From NCBI RefSeq assembly GCF_056746865.1, contig NZ_CM163382.1: a stretch of 64,000 nucleotides of DNA; one strand, 5' to 3'. Both the position numbers and the translations under genes were made by a program. The notes below the pieces were generated by a model, which ran no database searches, was not told the origin of the DNA, and worked only from the letters and a program-made list of their open reading frames with translations. This document shows positions 29,096 to 36,367 of the stretch, in pieces (the stretch's first letter is position 1; every line of letters starts with the position of its first letter).

Positions 29096-29500
29096 TTAGA
29101 TCAGGAAATCGTCGAGAGATTTACCTTCTGCCAGCGCCTGAGCGATTGGCTTCGGTGTACGGCCCTGACCGGTCCAGGTTTTAGTTTCACCGTTAACATC
29201 AGTGAATTTATATTTCGCCGGACGCGGCTGGCGTTTTTTACCAGCGCGTGGTGCAGCAGCAGAGCTATTACCCAATAACTCTTCCGGGTTAATTCCGTCA
29301 GCTTTCATCAGCTCCAGCCAGGTGCTAATTTTTTCCTGACGCTCAGCCAGTTCACGCTGCTGCTGTTCTTCTTCTTCACGTCTTTCTTTAGTGACAACCC
29401 TGAATTTTTCGAGCATTTCTTCAAGAACGTCAATGGAGAATTCGCGAGCCATCGCACGGAGAGTGCGAATGTTATTTAAACTTTGTAACATTACGGACAT
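29096..29500 (-). CDS. stpA: H-NS paralogue, DNA-binding protein StpA
   Basis: 134 aa, [21 protein letters not shown]... matches K-12 StpA. Confidence 0.95.
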
Positions 29501-30167
29501 AATAAAGAAAACCTTTTAACGCCAAAACAAAAAAGTATTTCGTCGCGTAGTGTAAGCGATCACTTATTATATTTCCACAAAATTTAATCTATTTACAGTC
29601 CTGCACGAGATTATTTCAGCTGTTATTTTCTGAAACTCTCAGAATAATTTCAAGATTATATATTAGCCATTTTGATGAGTAATTTCGGTTATTGGTGAAC
29701 AGAGCGGCGCTCTCTGCTCGCTAATTCCGCAAGCCTGACAAAACCAAAGTGAATAAAAATGCAATTTAACCGAATAAATGAAAACACCCCTCACTGGTGC
29801 TTTCTGCTGTCAATGTACATTTTCTGGCATAAAAAATGCTGAAAATGACCCGGTCACGACATACACCGAATTCTCTACGCTTATAGCGTTACCTCACCCC
29901 CAAACTTTCATTAGTGTAATTAAAGGCAGGATCATATCTAATTGATTCAATTGAAAATAAACCATATCGGCATGTAAAAATCCACAATGTACAAAAAACG
30001 CGCCGTTACGGAATATTTTATCTACAAAAACAGTTTAAATAAAAATTTTTCACTAATTGATTAGTCATAGCCAGCGATATACGCTATGCGAAAATGCAGA
30101 TGGCAATGAGATCCACTGCTTTCATCTCCATTCACATCCCATTACGCTTTTATTAAGGAGCATTAGC

Positions 30168-30617
30168 ATGTTCTCACCGCAGTCACGCTTGCGTCATGCA
30201 GTTGCAGATACGTTCGCGATGGTTGTTTACTGTTCTGTCGTGAACATGTGTATTGAAGTTTTCCTCTCCGGAATGAGCTTCGAACAGTCTTTTTATTCCA
30301 GATTGGTAGCGATTCCGGTGAACATCTTAATTGCATGGCCATACGGTATGTACCGCGATCTGTTTATGCGCGCAGCACGCAAAGTTAGCCCGTCGGGCTG
30401 GATAAAAAATCTGGCGGATATCATGGCTTATGTGACGTTCCAGTCACCGGTGTATGTGGCGATCTTGTTAGTGGTGGGCGCAGACTGGCATCAGATTATG
30501 GCGGCGGTCAGTTCAAACATCGTTGTTTCGATGTTGATGGGGGCGGTTTATGGCTACTTCCTCGATTATTGCCGCCGACTGTTTAAAGTTAGCCGTTACC
30601 AGCAGGTAAAAGCCTGA
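30168..30617 (+). CDS. alaE: L-alanine exporter AlaE (YgaW)
   Basis: Start at [15 protein letters not shown]; 149 aa; matches K-12. Confidence 0.92.
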
Positions 30618-30653
30618 CCCTTCTTTTCGCGACTGGCATCGCCAGTCGCGTCT

Positions 30654-30998
30654 TTAACTGGCTTCGCCAAATAAACCATTCAAATAACGTTCAAGCGCAA
30701 CACGCGAACTAAAGCCATGCGGGATACCGTAATGCTCATGACGTTCACCCGCTAAATAGAGCGGAAATTGTTGATAATGATCGCAAGTTTTAATATCGGA
30801 AGCGGGTTCAGCCAGTGTTGAACTACGTTCTTTTAATGTTGGATGAATCACCAGGGCGGTACGTCCCATTCGCGCTTCGCGATTAACATAGACATAATTT
30901 TCCCCACGGCGGTAACCATAAGCTTTCTGGGTTACCACATCGACAGTAAAACCGACTTTTTCAAGTACGCGCGCCACCTCGTCTGGTCGTAAATACAT
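30654..30998 (-). CDS. ygaC: DUF2002-family protein YgaC
   Basis: 114 aa, matches K-12. Confidence 0.9.
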
Positions 30999-31149
30999 AT
31001 TTGATCCTCGTTATTATCAACCGCGGGCCTACCTTACCTGATTGCGCATTCACAACGCTTTCAGAAAAGTCCATAAAGCCGCGATGAACCTCAGTTAAGA
31101 AAATTATGGTCTACACTGAAAATTACATCGAATTCTAATGGGGGATCAT

Positions 31150-31479
31150 ATGTTTAACCGACCGAACCGCAACGACGTTGATGATGGCGTGCAGGATATC
31201 CAGAATGATGTCAATCAATTAGCTGACAGCCTCGAGTCTGTGTTGAAGTCCTGGGGCAGCGACGCCAAAGGGGAAGCAGAAGCCGCTCGCAGTAAAGCGC
31301 AGGCTCTACTGAAAGAAACCAGGGCGCGAATGCATGGTCGTACTCGCGTCCAGCAAGCCGCACGCGATGCCGTTGGCTGCGCGGATTCTTTTGTTCGTGA
31401 AAGACCCTGGTGTAGCGTGGGTACAGCAGCTGCGGTAGGTATTTTTATCGGCGCACTGTTAAGCATGCGCAAATCGTAG
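31150..31479 (+). CDS. ygaM: ElaB/YqjD-family (DUF883) membrane-anchored protein YgaM
   Basis: Start at MFNRPNRND with GGGGGA SD; C-terminal transmembrane helix. Confidence 0.88.
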   Translation: MFNRPNRNDVDDGVQDIQNDVNQLADSLESVLKSWGSDAKGEAEAARSKAQALLKETRARMHGRTRVQQAARDAVGCADSFVRERPWCSVGTAAAVGIFIGALLSMRKS

Positions 31480-31510
31480 TGCAAAAATGATAATAAATAC
31501 GCGTCTTTGA

Positions 31511-31538
31511 CCCCGAAGCCTGGCTTCGGGGTTTTTTA
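31511..31538 (+). terminator. Rho-independent terminator after ygaM
   Basis: ccccgaagcc tggcttcgggg hairpin followed by TTTTTT. Confidence 0.6.
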
Positions 31539-32870
31539 GCTTAAGGCTTTACGTAATTGTTGTGCTACCTGTCGCGCCATACCTTCGTTAACGATATTAG
31601 TAAACGAGAGCAGTAATCCACCTTCCCCACTTGAACGGATACGCCAGTCGCTAAGTGCCTGCACCGCAAGGCCTGCAGCATTGGCTTTACGCGCATGGGC
31701 AATATCATCGCCTATCATTCTGATCACCATCTGGATACCACCTTTCTGCGGCACAACCTGAAATCCTTGCTGCGTCAACGCTTGCTCAATCCATTGCCGA
31801 CGTTGAGCATAATGCTGACGCATTTTCTTCAGATGCCGCCAGAAATGCCCCTCGCGAAGAAAGTCTGCCAGTGTGTTCTGCCATAGAACAGGTACCGCAC
31901 ATGGAGCCAGTGACGCCTGGTGGCGGAATTGTGCAATTTGCTTCACCGGCAACACCAGCCACGCACAGCGCAATGCAGGAAATAGCGCTTTGCTGAATGT
32001 TCCGGCATAAATTACCCGCTGCGGTGCGTCGAGACTTTTTAACGCCGGTAACGGCTTACCGTGATAGCGAAACTCACTGTCATAATCATCTTCAATAATC
32101 CATGCCTGACTACGATCTGCCCATTCCAGTATCTGATGCCTGCGCGCTAAAGAGAGCGCCACACCCAGCGGACTTTGGTGTGCTGGTGTTATCAGGGCAA
32201 AACGCGCATCAGGATAATTTTGTATTCCGCATGTGATATCCAGTCCATTGTCATCAACCGGCACAGGCAAAATTTCCACATCATGGCGAGTGACAATCGG
32301 GCGAATCAGTGGAAAGCCGGGATCTTCTATCCACATCCCGTTTCCCGGTTTCGCCAGCGCGTGCAGAATTAAAGCTATTGAGGCCGCATAACCGTGAGTG
32401 ATAAAGACCTGCTCTGGCTGACAATCAATCCCACGTGAAACGCGTAAGTAATCAACTATTGCCTCGCGCAACGCCACCTCACCGCAGACATCGCCTAACG
32501 CCAAATCAAAGCGCGTCTGGGTACGAAGGCGACGCCCCATCACCCGCGCCCACAGCTCTCGCGGAAAGAGATCGAGTGCGGGTAATCCCATTTGAAATGG
32601 CAACGGTTGCTGACTTTCACCGGCAAAAGCTACAACTTGTACAGTAGATTGTTGCGGATATATCCGCTCACTGACAAATGTGCCAGCCTGTCCCCGCCTG
32701 ATCAGCCATCCTTGCGCCACCAGCTCAGCATACGCATTTTCGACAGTGGATCGAGACACCCCCAGCTCCTGCGACCAGGTACGACTTGAAGGCAGCCTTG
32801 CGCCGGGTTTCAGTTCCCCTTGCTCAATAGCCGTTTTTAACTGACGGGCGATATCCTGATAGCGCGGCAT
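31536..32870 (-). CDS. MocR-type transcriptional regulator (GntR wHTH + PLP-dependent aminotransferase-like domain)
   Basis: 444 aa; N-terminal MPRYQDIARQLKTAIEQGELKPGARLPS... GntR-type HTH; large C-terminal aminotransferase-fold domain. Confidence 0.8.
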   Translation of the reverse strand: MPRYQDIARQLKTAIEQGELKPGARLPSSRTWSQELGVSRSTVENAYAELVAQGWLIRRGQAGTFVSERIYPQQSTVQVVAFAGESQQPLPFQMGLPALDLFPRELWARVMGRRLRTQTRFDLALGDVCGEVALREAIVDYLRVSRGIDCQPEQVFITHGYAASIALILHALAKPGNGMWIEDPGFPLIRPIVTRHDVEILPVPVDDNGLDITCGIQNYPDARFALITPAHQSPLGVALSLARRHQILEWADRSQAWIIEDDYDSEFRYHGKPLPALKSLDAPQRVIYAGTFSKALFPALRCAWLVLPVKQIAQFRHQASLAPCAVPVLWQNTLADFLREGHFWRHLKKMRQHYAQRRQWIEQALTQQGFQVVPQKGGIQMVIRMIGDDIAHARKANAAGLAVQALSDWRIRSSGEGGLLLSFTNIVNEGMARQVAQQLRKALS

Positions 32871-32957
32871 ATGGTCTGCTTTTTTAGGTAATTTATGGCT
32901 CTCTTTAGCAGTCCATTATAGTGCTACATTGCGGGCGTTAATAAGAGGAGAAACTGT

Positions 32958-33389
32958 ATGACTACATTACGTCAGCCTTACTACGAACTTAGCCCGGCAG
33001 TGTATAACGCACTAGTGCAGGCCAAAACGGCACTGGAAAATAGCACGCTGGATACCACGTTGATGGAGTTAGTTTATTTGCGCGTCTCGCAAATCAACGG
33101 CTGCGCATTTTGTCTGGAGATGCACAGCAAAGCATTGCGCAAATCCGGCGTGCCACAGCACAAACTGGACGCCCTGGCAGGTTGGCGCGTAAGCCATCAT
33201 TTTGATGAACGCGAGCGGGCGGCGCTGGCATGGGCGGAATCGGTAACCGAAATTGCCAGAACCCATGCGGAAGACGAGGTTTATCAGCCTTTGCTTGAGC
33301 ATTTCAGCGCAGCAGAGATCAGCGACTTAACGTTTGCCATCGGGCTGATGAATTGTTTTAACCGTCTGGCCGTTTCCATGCGGATGTAA
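32958..33389 (+). CDS. AhpD-like / carboxymuconolactone decarboxylase family protein
   Basis: 143 aa with CAFCLEMH (CxxCxxxH) AhpD-core motif. Confidence 0.8.
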   Translation: MTTLRQPYYELSPAVYNALVQAKTALENSTLDTTLMELVYLRVSQINGCAFCLEMHSKALRKSGVPQHKLDALAGWRVSHHFDERERAALAWAESVTEIARTHAEDEVYQPLLEHFSAAEISDLTFAIGLMNCFNRLAVSMRM

Positions 33390-33597
33390 CTTCTTGATGC
33401 CGGGTATTCACCCGGCAAAAAAACACAAAATCCCCTACCCCGTTGAGCCATTCATCGGTGGCGTAATCAATCTAAAATTCCCATATCTTGTATGGTTGAA
33501 TCTTTTTTCAACTACATCTAGTATCTCTGTATCAACAGAGAGACAACCCGACGCGTATCATCGCGCCGTATCTTCATTTTAAACGGAAATACGAATC

Positions 33598-33843
33598 ATG
33601 CGCATTACTATTTACACTCGTAACGATTGCGTTCAGTGCCACGCCACCAAACGGGCGATGGAAAACCGGGGCTTTGATTTTGAAATGATTAATGTCGATC
33701 ACGTTCCTGAAGCGGCGGAAGCGTTGCGTGCTCAGGGCTTTCGTCAGTTGCCGGTAGTGATTGCTGGCGATCTTAGCTGGTCTGGTTTCCGCCCGGACAT
33801 GATCAATCGTCTGCATCCAGCGCCACACGCGGCCAGTGCATGA
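33598..33843 (+). CDS. nrdH: Glutaredoxin-like protein NrdH
   Basis: 81 aa, [21 protein letters not shown]... matches K-12. Confidence 0.95.
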
Positions 33844-34241
33844 GCCAGCTCGTCTACTTTTCCAGTAGCTCCGAAAATACGCAGCGTTTTATCGAACGTT
33901 TAGGACTGCCCGCGGTGCGCATCCCGCTCAATGAGCGGGAACGGATTCAGGTAGACGAGCCTTACATCCTGATCGTGCCCTCTTACGGCGGCGGCGGTAC
34001 GGCTGGCGCAGTGCCACGACAGGTCATTCGCTTTTTAAACGACGAGCACAACCGGGTGTTGCTGCGCGGCGTTATTGCTTCGGGTAATCGCAACTTTGGT
34101 GAGGCGTATGGCCGCGCCGGAGATGTGATAGCCCGGAAATGCGGCGTGCCGTGGCTGTACCGCTTTGAACTCATGGGTACGCAAAGCGATATCGAAAACG
34201 TTCGTAAAGGAGTAACCGAATTTTGGCAACGACAACCGTAG
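33840..34241 (+). CDS. nrdI: Flavodoxin-like ribonucleotide reductase stimulatory protein NrdI
   Basis: [17 protein letters not shown]...; ATGA overlap with nrdH. Confidence 0.93.
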
Positions 34242-36367
34242 AACGCCTGACGCAGGAAACGATGGATTACCACGCGCTGAATGCGATGCTTAACCTTTAC
34301 GATAGCGCAGGTCGCATTCAGTTCGATAAAGATCGCCAGGCCGTTGACGCCTTTATGGCGACACATGTGCGTCCGAACAGTGTGACCTTCAGTAGCCAGC
34401 AGCAGCGCCTGAACTGGCTGGTCAACGAAGGTTACTATGATGAAAACGTCCTCAACCGCTACTCTCGCGATTTTGTCATTACGCTGTTTGCCCACGCGCA
34501 CGCCAGCGGTTTTCGTTTCCAGACATTCCTCGGAGCATGGAAGTTTTACACCAGCTATACGTTGAAGACATTCGACGGTAAGCGTTATCTGGAAGATTTT
34601 GCCGATCGAGTCACGATGGTGGCGCTGACGCTGGCACAAGGCGATGAAACTCTGGCGACGCAACTGACCGATGAGATGCTGTCAGGACGCTTTCAGCCAG
34701 CCACGCCAACATTCCTCAACTGCGGTAAGCAGCAGCGCGGCGAACTGGTTTCCTGTTTTTTGCTGCGTATTGAAGACAATATGGAGTCGATTGGTCGGGC
34801 GGTAAATTCCGCACTGCAACTGTCGAAACGCGGCGGCGGCGTAGCATTTTTGCTGTCGAATCTGCGAGAAGCGGGCGCGCCAATTAAACGTATTGAAAAT
34901 CAATCATCTGGCGTGATTCCGGTGATGAAAATGCTGGAAGACGCATTTTCCTATGCCAACCAGCTCGGCGCGCGTCAGGGTGCTGGCGCAGTCTATTTAC
35001 ATGCCCATCATCCCGATATTCTGCGTTTTCTCGATACGAAACGGGAAAATGCCGACGAGAAAATCCGCATTAAAACACTGTCGCTGGGCGTGGTGATCCC
35101 GGATATCACTTTCCATCTGGCAAAAGAGAATGCGCAGATGGCACTGTTTTCGCCTTATGACGTTGAGCGGGTTTATGGCAAGCCGTTTGCTGATATCGCC
35201 ATCAGTGAACACTATGCCGAACTGGTTGCCAATGAACGCATCCGCAAAAAATACCTCAACGCCCGTGATTTCTTCCAGCGACTGGCAGAAATCCAGTTTG
35301 AGTCCGGCTATCCCTACATCATGTATGAAGACACGGTTAACCGTGCTAACCCTATCGCCGGGCGCATAAATATGAGCAATCTCTGCTCAGAAATTTTGCA
35401 GGTTAACAGCGCCTCAGAGTATGACGAGAATCTCGACTATGCCCGCACAGGCCATGATATTTCCTGCAATTTAGGTTCGTTGAATATTGCCCACACCATG
35501 GATTCCCCCGACTTTGCCCGCACGGTAGAGACTGCCGTGCGCGGTTTAACGGCGGTGTCAGATATGAGTCATATCCGCAGCGTGCCGTCCATCGAAGCCG
35601 GAAATGCCGCCTCACACGCCATCGGACTGGGGCAGATGAATTTACACGGCTATCTGGCGCGAGAAGGCATCGCTTATGGTTCGCCGGAAGCACTGGATTT
35701 CACCAATCTCTATTTCTATACCATCACCTGGCACGCACTGCGTACCTCGATGTTGCTGGCGCGCGAACGCGGTGAAACCTTCGCCGGGTTCAAACAGTCA
35801 CGCTATGCCAGTGGTGAATATTTTAGCCAATATCTGCAAGGGAACTGGCAGCCGAAAACGGCGAAAGTTGGCGAACTGTTTACCCGTAGCGGTATTACGT
35901 TACCTACCCGTGAGATGTGGGCGCAGCTGCGCGACGACGTGATGCGCTACGGCATTTACAACCAGAATCTTCAGGCGGTGCCGCCCACCGGTTCTATCTC
36001 TTATATCAACCATGCTACGTCGAGTATTCATCCAATTGTGGCGAAAGTAGAGATACGCAAAGAGGGCAAAACAGGGCGCGTTTACTACCCTGCCCCGTTT
36101 ATGACTAACGAAAATCTGGCGCTGTATCAGGACGCTTACGAAATCGGCGCAGAAAAGATCATCGACACCTACGCGGAAGCGACTCGCCATGTCGATCAGG
36201 GGCTGTCGCTGACGCTGTTTTTCCCCGATACCGCCACCACTCGCGATATCAACAAAGCGCAGATTTACGCCTGGCGCAAGGGTATCAAAACGCTCTACTA
36301 CATCCGCCTGCGTCAGATGGCGCTGGAAGGCACTGAAATTGAAGGCTGCGTCTCCTGTGCACTTTAA
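34223..36367 (+). CDS. nrdE: Class Ib ribonucleoside-diphosphate reductase alpha subunit NrdE
   Basis: 714 aa, matches K-12. Confidence 0.95.

What the first reader, a model, noticed from the sequence alone, without database searches (positions are those of the whole stretch)
31480..33597. MocR-type regulator plus AhpD-like gene inserted between ygaM and nrdH
In the K-12 arrangement as I recall it, ygaM is followed closely by nrdH. Here about 2.1 kb carrying a divergent pair (MocR/GntR-aminotransferase-fold regulator and an AhpD-core CxxCxxxH protein) lies in between. This looks like a strain-variable regulator-target module that may respond to a PLP-related or oxidative ligand.
Basis: partly seen in the sequence, partly recalled or inferred. 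Interest (0 to 1): 0.35.

Follow-up and report, generated by a model that had tools for sequence, protein, structure and literature searches.

The report
Ancestral regulator–redox gene pair lost in K-12
Two real genes (a vitamin-B6-type sensor/regulator and a small thiol-redox protein) sit between ygaM and nrdH in this E. coli strain; they are an old, already catalogued gene pair that K-12 and about three quarters of E. coli have deleted, not a new insertion.

Summary
Window 31536-32870 (-) encodes a 444-aa MocR-type regulator (GntR wHTH plus aminotransferase fold, PLP lysine K294). Window 32958-33389 (+) encodes a 143-aa AhpD/CMD protein with C49xxC52xxxH56. K-12 lacks both genes.

The order ygaC-ygaM-mocR-CMD-nrdHIE is found in E. 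albertii, Pseudocitrobacter, Cedecea, Pluralibacter, Shimwellia and Rahnella. Citrobacter and a Salmonella-labelled contig have the same order without ygaM. Identities track phylogeny, GC is native and there are no mobile-element marks. The pair is therefore ancestral and K-12 carries a deletion.

Of 5,426 complete E. coli genomes, 1,388 keep the module. About 110 of these have a 581-bp deletion of the regulator's N-terminus.

The 87-bp divergent spacer holds a three-box operator: ATGGTCTG, N16, ATGGCTCT, N6, CAGTCCAT, followed by a TATAGT -10-like hexamer. The spacing is invariant in 23 sequences. This is the two-direct-plus-one-inverted layout known from B. clausii PdxR.

The regulator–target pair is already a predicted regulog (Spro_3719/STM2803 → COG2128; Suvorova & Rodionov 2016). 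PGAP's "PdxR" name looks like an over-call. Ligand and physiological role remain unknown. Low interest.

The parts
31509..31533 (+). ygaM terminator hairpin plus T-run. The left edge of the K-12 deletion lies just after it, and the mocR stop codon (31536-31538) overlaps its T-run.
   Evidence: Terminator scan. Sequence and K-12 alignment.
31536..32870 (-). mocR-type regulator gene, 444 aa: GntR wHTH (residues 4-66) plus fold-type-I aminotransferase-like domain. K294 lies in a TFSK motif aligned with the Schiff-base lysine K312 of GabR.
   Evidence: dN/dS is about 0.10 against the O157 and L021 alleles.
32287..32867 (-). Segment (mocR codons 1-194, wHTH and linker) deleted in about 110 E. coli genomes such as MS8320. 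The operator and the CMD gene are kept; PGAP marks the remainder a pseudogene.
32871..32878 (+). Operator box 1, ATGGTCTG, abutting the mocR start codon. A conserved T-tract follows at 32880-32885.
   Evidence: Ungapped 23-sequence footprint. Fixed spacing. The composite pattern is unique in the 64-kb window, 0.01 expected.
32894..32903 (+). Operator box 2, TATGGCTCTC. It is a direct repeat of box 1, 24 bp start-to-start, and lies where a -35 element would be for the TATAGT hexamer.
32909..32916 (+). Operator box 3, CAGTCCAT. It is an inverted copy of box 1 with one mismatch, 38 bp start-to-start.
32917..32922 (+). TATAGT, a conserved -10-like hexamer for the CMD gene. The opposite strand reads TATAAT at 32920-32915, a candidate -10 for mocR.
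   Evidence: The hexamer is conserved in the footprint. Its assignment as a promoter element is inference; the consensus scan did not call a full promoter because the -35 is poor.
32958..33389 (+). AhpD-like/CMD-family gene, 143 aa, with C49xxC52xxxH56 and E37. The SD sequence GAGGAG is at 32945-32950.
   Evidence: It is 41% identical over 141 aa to P. aeruginosa PA0269. dN/dS is 0.03-0.07.
33399..33423 (+). GC-rich hairpin GCCGGGTATTCACCCGGC followed by A7, not U. It is not a canonical terminator, and a remnant of it survives in K-12.
31538..33482 (.). The segment that differs from K-12: 1,945 bp here against 73 bp in K-12.

Best explanation
This is an ancestral, chromosomally native two-gene regulon of Enterobacterales, and the lineage leading to K-12 has deleted it. 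The named strains that retain it are, from my own knowledge of them, phylogroups B2, F and E.

The proposed mechanism is inferred by analogy. A MocR-type PLP-dependent transcription factor dimer binds a 46-bp three-box operator (two direct boxes plus one inverted box, with a T-tract after box 1). The operator fills the divergent spacer and overlaps the -35 and spacer region of the CMD promoter and the 5' end of mocR. The factor thereby autoregulates and controls the adjacent AhpD-like gene. Most likely it switches between the direct-repeat and inverted-repeat binding modes when an amino compound or PLP occupies the aminotransferase-like pocket, as in B. clausii PdxR and B. subtilis GabR.

The target is a small Cys-dependent AhpD-like redox protein related to hexameric PA0269. 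In Pseudomonas and Burkholderiales relatives the same regulator also drives an azoreductase-like flavoprotein and a GNAT acetyltransferase. This points to detoxification of a redox-active or electrophilic compound.

Shown here: the gene identities, the ancestral position, purifying selection and the conserved operator. Inferred: DNA binding, the direction of regulation, the ligand and the enzyme's substrate.
For: Position and ancestry:
- The order ygaC-ygaM-mocR-CMD-nrdHIE occurs in 17 of the 23 Enterobacterales species loci, and the same order without ygaM in three Citrobacter loci. MocR identity is 90% (E. albertii), 74-77% (Citrobacter), 62-71% (other genera) and 47% (Rahnella).
- A Salmonella-labelled protein sits in the same nrdH-adjacent slot.
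- E. marmotae has an 89% identical homologue.
- GC is 52.4% and 52.3% against 52-56% for ygaM and the nrd genes. No flanking repeats were found.
- All 21 sampled module-less genomes have the same 2,229-2,231-bp span.

Selection:
- dN/dS is 0.03-0.11 for both genes.

Operator:
- Boxes 1, 2 and 3 and the TATAGT hexamer are conserved with invariant 24-bp and 38-bp spacing in 23 sequences, while the nucleotides between them vary.
- The composite pattern occurs once in the 64 kb, with 0.01 expected, and once per related locus at the homologous place.
- The same architecture is seen in Pseudomonas, Burkholderiales, Hafnia, Budvicia and Rahnella.
- Two direct boxes plus one inverted box is the commonest MocR motif type (PMC5320631). 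It is also the B. clausii PdxR site, a 48-bp fragment with an A/T tract after motif 1 (PMC10450172).

Proteins:
- The best solved relatives of the regulator are B. clausii PdxR 7PQ9 (E 5e-62) and GabR (E 2e-54), and the PLP lysine aligns.
- The CMD protein is 41% identical to PA0269, which is hexameric and shows weak Cys-dependent H2O2 reduction.

Prior regulog and co-occurrence:
- Spro_3719/STM2803/KPN_03002/CKO_04020 → COG2128, and PFL_2191 → COG2128 + AcpD + GNAT (PMC5320631 supplement).
- Across 79 loci, a CMD gene lies within 4 kb in 65, an AzoR-like gene in 32 and a GNAT gene in 23.
Against: - There is no experimental evidence for binding, regulation, ligand or enzyme activity for this orthologue group. 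Locus-tag searches found none.
- Box 1 abuts or overlaps the mocR start codon, so part of its conservation could reflect translation initiation.
- Box 3 sits between the -35 and -10 positions. That placement would suit repression as well as activation, so the sign of regulation is open.
- About 74% of E. coli genomes do without the pair, and about 110 have inactivated the regulator. The pair is therefore dispensable.
- The mocR alleles of the window type and the O157 type differ far more (dS 0.40) than neighbouring genes (about 0.08-0.17). Some lineages may therefore have re-imported the locus by homologous recombination rather than simply retained it.
Confidence: 0.75

Rival explanations
1. 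One reading: a horizontally acquired regulator-target cassette inserted between ygaM and nrdH in this strain's lineage.
For: The pair is absent from K-12 and from 4,038 of 5,426 complete genomes. The mocR alleles within E. coli are unusually divergent (89.3% nt, dS 0.40), which could mean import.
Against: The same slot is occupied, with identity tracking phylogeny, in E. albertii, Citrobacter, a Salmonella-labelled contig and at least 10 other genera including Rahnella. GC content is native. There is no integrase, IS element, tRNA, target-site duplication or terminal inverted repeat. K-12 retains remnants of the sequence downstream of the CMD gene.
Confidence: 0.05
2. The regulator is a true PdxR, as newer PGAP annotation states: it senses PLP and controls vitamin B6 synthesis or salvage.
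For: It scores 406.7 bits on NCBIfam PLP_TF_PdxR, above the cutoff of 320. Its best solved relative is B. clausii PdxR. The operator architecture is the same.
Against: - The divergent target is an AhpD-like gene in all 23 Enterobacterales loci, and GNAT-AzoR-CMD in Pseudomonas. It is never a pdx gene.
- E. coli makes PLP by the DXP-dependent route and has no pdxST (established knowledge).
- The comparative-genomics study places the orthologues in a group of unknown function (Spro_3719), separate from its PdxR, PdxW and PdxQ groups.
- The model cutoff is permissive. The genuine PdxR scores 600.8 bits. Pseudomonas and Burkholderia regulators of CMD operons score 422.7 and 393.9 and score equally well on the rhizopine MocR model.
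Confidence: 0.1
3. The pair is a decaying relic with no current function in E. coli.
For: It has been lost from about 74% of genomes. A further 110 or so carry a 581-bp deletion that removes the DNA-binding domain.
Against: Both ORFs are intact in the 118UI, O157 Z563, Sakai, L021 and E. albertii loci compared, and 1,276 genomes hold at least 80% of the module. dN/dS is 0.03-0.11. The operator boxes are identical between the divergent B2-type and O157-type alleles.
Confidence: 0.1

Closest known systems
'Spro_3719 - Enterobacteriales' MocR regulog (STM2803 in S. Typhimurium LT2, KPN_03002, CKO_04020, Spro_3719), predicted target COG2128; Suvorova & Rodionov 2016, PMC5320631 supplementary table
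   Same: Probably the same orthologous regulator-target pair, a MocR-TF with an adjacent AhpD/CMD (COG2128) gene. A Salmonella-labelled 76%-identical homologue sits in the same nrdH-adjacent slot. I did not compare the listed genes themselves with the window protein.
   Different: That study used K-12 as its E. coli genome, so no E. coli member was listed. The regulog is purely in silico, and I could not see its published motif to compare it with the boxes found here.
Bacillus clausii PdxR-pdxST (structures 7PQ9, 7ZLA and others; PMC10450172)
   Same: MocR architecture with the best PDB sequence match (E 5e-62). The regulator gene is divergent from its target. The operator has two direct motifs plus one inverted motif in about 46-48 bp, with an A/T tract after motif 1. 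The PLP lysine is conserved.
   Different: The target here is an AhpD-like redox protein, not PLP synthase. The box sequence differs. The effector is unknown. The NCBIfam score is 407 bits against 601 bits for the real PdxR.
Pseudomonas aeruginosa PA0268 / PA0269
   Same: PA0269 is the closest solved relative of the CMD protein: 41% identity over 141 aa, with CxxC, His and Glu of the proton relay conserved. PA0268 is a MocR-TF predicted to regulate it.
   Different: The 2016 study places it in a different orthologous regulator group (PA0268, not Spro_3719). Tyr50 of the PA0269 relay is Phe51 here. Only a weak in vitro H2O2 reduction is known for PA0269, and its physiological role is unknown.
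Bacillus subtilis GabR-gabTD
   Same: A MocR-family regulator (E 2e-54) with aligned PLP lysine K312/K294. It autorepresses and is a ligand-dependent activator of a divergent target through repeats spaced by helical turns (PMC5320631 introduction).
   Different: GabR senses GABA and controls an aminotransferase/dehydrogenase operon. There is no evidence for GABA sensing here.
Mycobacterium tuberculosis AhpD
   Same: CMD/AhpD fold family with a CxxC-His-Glu proton relay.
   Different: The match is weak (TIGR00777, 30.9 bits against a cutoff of 192). In M. tuberculosis AhpD the motif is in the C-terminal half of the chain, the protein is a trimer, and it works with AhpC. No ahpC is adjacent here.

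Membership tests
MocR subfamily of GntR transcription factors | N-terminal GntR-type winged HTH | tested here: met
   Pfam GntR PF00392, residues 4-66, 63.6 bits against a cutoff of 27.
MocR subfamily of GntR transcription factors | C-terminal fold-type-I aminotransferase-like domain with the PLP Schiff-base lysine | tested here: met
   Pfam Aminotran_1_2, residues 126-386, 89 bits. K294 in TFSK aligns with FSK of PdxR and with K312 of GabR.
MocR subfamily of GntR transcription factors | Operator made of direct and/or inverted repeats spaced by helical turns, near the regulator's own gene | tested here: met
   Three conserved boxes (two direct, one inverted) with invariant 24-bp and 38-bp spacing in 23 orthologous spacers. 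Actual binding was not tested.
MocR subfamily of GntR transcription factors | Head-to-tail homodimer that binds PLP | not testable with these tools
   Needs the purified protein.
PdxR (PLP-biosynthesis regulator; NCBIfam NF052282) | Score above the curated model cutoff | tested here: met
   406.7 bits against a cutoff of 320. The cutoff also admits regulators of GNAT-AzoR-CMD operons.
PdxR (PLP-biosynthesis regulator; NCBIfam NF052282) | Controls or adjoins PLP synthesis or salvage genes (pdxST, pdxK, pdxH/pdxO) | tested here: not met
   The neighbour is a CMD gene in every Enterobacterales locus. It is GNAT/AzoR/CMD elsewhere. The published regulog lists only COG2128.
PdxR (PLP-biosynthesis regulator; NCBIfam NF052282) | PLP acts as the effector that switches DNA-binding mode | not testable with these tools
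   Needs EMSA or footprinting with and without PLP.
AhpD-like / carboxymuconolactone decarboxylase family (PF02627, COG2128) | CMD domain | tested here: met
   PF02627, 75.4 bits against a cutoff of 23. TIGR00778 AhpD core, 54.9 bits against a cutoff of 27.8.
AhpD-like / carboxymuconolactone decarboxylase family (PF02627, COG2128) | CxxC plus the His/Glu proton relay (PA0269: E36, C48, Y50, C51, H55) | tested here: met
   E37, C49, C52 and H56 are conserved. Tyr is replaced by Phe51, so 4 of 5 residues match.
AhpD-like / carboxymuconolactone decarboxylase family (PF02627, COG2128) | Thiol-dependent peroxidase or reductase activity; hexameric ring | not testable with these tools
   Known only for PA0269 in vitro (PMC3141380).
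Genomic island / mobile insertion | Mobility genes, flanking direct or inverted repeats, tRNA or att site, deviant composition, patchy non-syntenic distribution | tested here: not met
   There are no such ORFs and no boundary repeats. GC is 52.4% and 52.3%, against 52-56% for ygaM and the nrd genes. The slot is syntenic across genera.

The most novel reading that the evidence does not exclude
The MocR-COG2128 pair may be a defence of PLP chemistry itself. Across Proteobacteria the pair often expands to include an azoreductase-like flavoprotein and a GNAT acetyltransferase. In this reading the regulator uses its bound PLP as bait to sense carbonyl-reactive or redox-active xenobiotics, such as hydrazines, hydroxylamines, arylamines, or quinone and azo compounds. 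It then induces enzymes that reduce or acetylate them.

In B2, F and E strains of E. coli there is no U-tract terminator between the CMD gene and nrdH. Induction could therefore also read through into nrdHIEF. That would give these pathotypes a MocR-controlled input to the Mn-dependent ribonucleotide reductase that K-12 lacks.
Probability: 0.08. Interest if true: 0.55.

Novelty: already known. Interest (0 to 1): 0.15.

Why it matters
The practical value is mostly corrective.

- The K-12 arrangement at ygaM-nrdH is a derived deletion, so K-12 is not the reference state for this locus.
- The "pdxR" name now spreading through PGAP annotations of B2 and O157 genomes is probably wrong for this gene.
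- A concrete, testable operator (32871-32916) is available for what appears to be the commonest uncharacterised type of MocR regulon. COG2128 is listed 53 times as a regulated gene in the 2016 survey.

The pair is present in uropathogenic and neonatal-meningitis B2 strains, in O157:H7 and, according to the 2016 regulog table, in Salmonella and Klebsiella. A defined function would therefore have some medical interest. Nothing here suggests a new kind of system.

Tried and rejected
- **Mobile-element reading.** I looked for flanking direct or inverted repeats, integrase or IS ORFs and a GC deviation. None was found.
- **Non-coding RNA in the region.** An Rfam E-value scan of 29000-35000 gave no match.
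- **Terminator after the CMD gene.** The hairpin at 33399-33416 is followed by A7, not U, and was not called by the terminator scan. It is therefore not a canonical terminator.
- **Long-range pairing.** The operator spacer (32887-32909) has 12-nt and 11-nt perfect complements inside mocR. The pairing decays in E. albertii and is absent in other genera, so I treat it as chance.
- **Literature on locus tags.** ECs3534, ECs3535, STM2803, KPN_03002 and CKO_04020 gave no main-text hits. STM2804 appears only as a neutral site for a marker insertion. z3974 was pulled down on a salicylidene-acylhydrazide resin in O157, but I could not verify which gene that tag denotes, and the supplement is not held.
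- **'MocR' plus 'carboxymuconolactone decarboxylase'.** This text search gave no papers.
- **Phylogroup assignment.** I could not type all 5,426 genomes. Assignments for named strains rest on my own knowledge: IHE3034, NC101 and Nissle are B2; IAI39 is F; Sakai and O145 are E; K-12 and B are A.
Full report
**1. The observation**

Window 31536-32870 (minus strand) is a 444-aa ORF. It carries Pfam GntR (residues 4-66) and Aminotran_1_2 (residues 126-386). Window 32958-33389 (plus strand) is a 143-aa ORF with Pfam CMD and the NCBIfam AhpD-core domain.

The two genes are divergent and share an 87-bp spacer at 32871-32957. A complete genome that is 100% identical over 30500-34600 (strain 118UI, urine isolate) is annotated with the same two genes between ygaM and nrdH.

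In the K-12 derivative RP437, ygaM and nrdH are 247 bp apart with nothing between them. By blastn, homology with K-12 ends at window 31537, just after the ygaM terminator hairpin, and resumes at 33483. A K-12 remnant ('cacaaaaatccccctaccccgt') matches window 33421-33443.

**2. Insertion or deletion**

A scan of one genome per bacterial species with the MocR protein returned 79 loci. I located the flanking genes in them by tblastn.

- The order ygaC-ygaM-mocR-CMD-nrdH-nrdI-nrdE is found in these taxa (MocR identity in brackets):
  - E. albertii (90%) and a divergent 'E. coli' representative (91%).
  - Pseudocitrobacter, Cedecea, Pseudescherichia vulneris, Shimwellia, Pluralibacter and several 'Enterobacter' species (62-71%).
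  - Rahnella (47%).
- Three Citrobacter species (74-77%) have the same order without ygaM.
- A 76%-identical protein that NCBI labels Salmonella enterica lies between nrdH and ygaC, also without ygaM.
- E. marmotae has an 89%-identical homologue.

Identity falls with phylogenetic distance. GC of the two genes (52.4% and 52.3%) matches that of ygaM and the nrd genes (52-56%). There are no boundary repeats or mobility genes.

The pair is therefore ancestral at this site, and K-12 carries a deletion. All 21 module-less genomes sampled show the same 2,229-2,231-bp span. That is consistent with one deletion event that later spread.

**3. Distribution in E. coli**

The 1,945-bp module matches 1,388 of 5,426 complete genomes, always once and always on the chromosome.

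- 1,007 genomes match at 99% identity or more. These include IHE3034, NC101, Nissle 1917 and IAI39.
- 365 genomes match at about 92%. These are O157:H7 and O145.
- About 110 genomes cover only 70% of the module. In MS8320 the gap is window 32287-32867, which is mocR codons 1-194 up to the start codon. The operator and the CMD gene remain, and PGAP marks the remainder as a pseudogene.

Both genes are under purifying selection, with dN/dS of 0.03-0.11.

The mocR alleles of the window type and the O157 type are unusually far apart: 89.3% nt identity, dS 0.40. For comparison, CMD has dS 0.087, nrdH 0.077 and nrdI 0.099. The O157 allele also has a different ygaM-mocR spacer, 93 bp longer. This points to a recombination boundary near the spacer and leaves room for allele replacement by homologous recombination in some lineages.

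**4. The operator**

The 23 Enterobacterales spacers align without gaps over about 60 bp. The layout is:

| Element | Sequence | Window position |
|---|---|---|
| Box 1 | ATGGTCTG | 32871-32878 |
| T-tract | TTTTTT | 32880-32885 |
| Box 2 | TATGGCTnTC | 32894-32903 |
| Box 3 | CAGnCCAT | 32909-32916 |
| -10-like | TATAGT(G) | 32917-32923 |

The nucleotides between these elements vary freely. Box 2 is a direct repeat of box 1, and box 3 is its inverted copy.

- Box 1 to box 3 is 38 bp wherever both boxes match the search pattern (21 of the 23), and all three boxes stay in register across the 23 sequences.
- The composite 46-bp pattern occurs once in the 64-kb window, with 0.01 expected allowing 3 mismatches.
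- It occurs once in each related locus, at the homologous place.
- The same layout appears upstream of 41-48%-identical regulators in Pseudomonas, Burkholderiales, Hafnia, Budvicia and Rahnella, for example ATGGCCTA...TTGGCyCT...TAGGCCAT...TAnAGT.

Two direct boxes plus one inverted box is the most frequent MocR motif type, found in 32% of regulons (PMC5320631). It is also the experimentally and structurally characterised B. clausii PdxR site: motifs 1-3 in a 48-bp fragment, with an A/T tract after motif 1 that bends the DNA. Holo-PdxR clamps motifs 1 and 3 (PMC10450172).

Box 2 lies where a -35 element would be for the TATAGT hexamer, and no good -35 exists. Box 3 fills the spacer next to the -10. 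Box 1 abuts the mocR start codon, which has no upstream in-frame start and no Shine-Dalgarno sequence.

From this geometry I infer autoregulation plus ligand-dependent control of the CMD gene. The geometry does not fix the sign of that control.

**5. The proteins**

The best solved relatives of the regulator are B. clausii PdxR (7PQ9 and related entries, E 5e-62) and B. subtilis GabR (E 2e-54). K294 in TFSK aligns with GabR K312.

The CMD protein is 41% identical over 141 residues to P. aeruginosa PA0269 (2IJC, 2O4D, 7XW1). PA0269 is a hexameric AhpD-like protein with weak, N-ethylmaleimide-sensitive H2O2 reduction and a proton relay of E36, C48, Y50, C51 and H55 (PMC3141380). Here E37, C49, C52 and H56 are kept, and the Tyr is Phe51.

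In Pseudomonas the divergent operon is GNAT, azoreductase-like flavoprotein, CMD. Across the 79 loci, a CMD gene lies within 4 kb in 65, an AzoR-like gene in 32 and a GNAT gene in 23. This gene content suggests handling of a redox-active or electrophilic compound. That is inference only.

**6. What is already known**

The supplementary regulon table of Suvorova & Rodionov 2016 lists an orthologous group 'Spro_3719 - Enterobacteriales'. Its members are CKO_04020, Ent638_0497, ECA2654, KPN_03002, STM2803 and Spro_3719, with COG2128 as the regulated gene.

The same table lists PFL_2191 with COG2128 + AcpD + GNAT and a PA0268 group with COG2128. COG2128 is listed 53 times as a regulated gene.

The regulator-target link is therefore a published in-silico regulog of unknown function. 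K-12 was that study's E. coli genome, so no E. coli member was listed. I found no experimental work on any orthologue.

**7. The 'PdxR' label**

Newer PGAP annotations call the gene pdxR. This is because it scores 406.7 bits on NF052282, whose cutoff is 320.

As a control, I rebuilt the genuine B. clausii PdxR sequence from the alignment. It scores 600.8 bits. Pseudomonas and Burkholderia regulators of CMD operons score 422.7 and 393.9 bits, and they score equally well on the rhizopine-MocR model.

No pdx gene adjoins any of the loci, and E. coli lacks pdxST (established knowledge). I therefore do not file this gene as PdxR, although it probably works like PdxR at the DNA level.

**8. Verdict**

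The 'insertion' is in fact an ancestral state that K-12 lost. The module is annotated in more than a thousand genomes and belongs to a published predicted regulog.

The operator definition, the internal-deletion allele and the naming problem are useful details, but none is surprising. Interest is low. The unknown ligand and function of the widespread MocR-COG2128 pairing is the only open question, and this locus does not make that question easier to test than Salmonella or Pseudomonas would.

Noticed in passing
window 31536-32870: PGAP's newer name 'pdxR: MocR-like pyridoxine biosynthesis transcription factor' rests on an NCBIfam cutoff of 320 bits. That cutoff also admits regulators of GNAT-AzoR-CMD operons (394-423 bits), whereas a genuine PdxR scores 601 bits. 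The name is probably an annotation over-call.
   Followed up: yes
window 32287-32867 (L083 1942-1948 junction): About 110 complete E. coli genomes carry a 581-bp deletion. It removes mocR codons 1-194 exactly up to the start codon and leaves the operator and the CMD gene intact. These strains are natural regulator-null variants.
   Followed up: partly
window 31150-32870 vs L003 (O157 Z563): mocR (dS 0.40) and ygaM (dS 0.31) are much more diverged between the window-type and O157-type alleles than CMD, nrdH or nrdI (dS 0.08-0.10). O157 also has a different ygaM-mocR spacer, 93 bp longer. This suggests a recombination boundary near the divergent spacer.
   Followed up: partly
window 33444-33495 vs L001 2574-2625: The roughly 40 bp upstream of the conserved nrdH control region differ strongly between K-12 and this strain. 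So do 2-3 positions of the NrdR-box-like ATATCTTGTATGG (K-12: ATATATTGTGTGG). The window form is the one shared with E. albertii, Citrobacter and the Salmonella-labelled contig. nrdHIEF regulation might therefore differ slightly between the two E. coli forms.
   Followed up: partly
window 33390-33597: There is no canonical intrinsic terminator between the CMD stop codon and nrdH. The hairpin at 33399-33416 is followed by A7. Transcription from the CMD promoter could read into nrdHIEF. The CMD gene is directly upstream of and co-oriented with nrdH in 21 of the 23 Enterobacterales species loci.
   Followed up: partly
window 32887-32909 vs 32006-32016 and 32146-32157: The operator spacer has 11-nt and 12-nt perfect complements inside the mocR coding region. 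These are not conserved in E. albertii or other genera, so they are probably chance.
   Followed up: yes
L005-L007 (Citrobacter), L084/L085 (Salmonella-labelled): These loci lack ygaM between mocR and ygaC. They also carry REP-like sequence between the CMD gene and nrdH.
   Followed up: no
L023 2352-3874 and 31 other loci: In Pseudomonas, Burkholderiales and others the regulator's divergent operon is GNAT acetyltransferase, azoreductase-like flavoprotein, CMD. The enterobacterial regulon looks like a reduced version.
   Followed up: partly
L086 (Sakai ECs_3534/ECs_3535): A 2011 study pulled 'z3974' out of O157 lysate on a salicylidene-acylhydrazide affinity resin, together with Tpx and WrbA. 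By tag arithmetic z3974 may be the CMD gene. I could not verify the mapping.
   Followed up: partly
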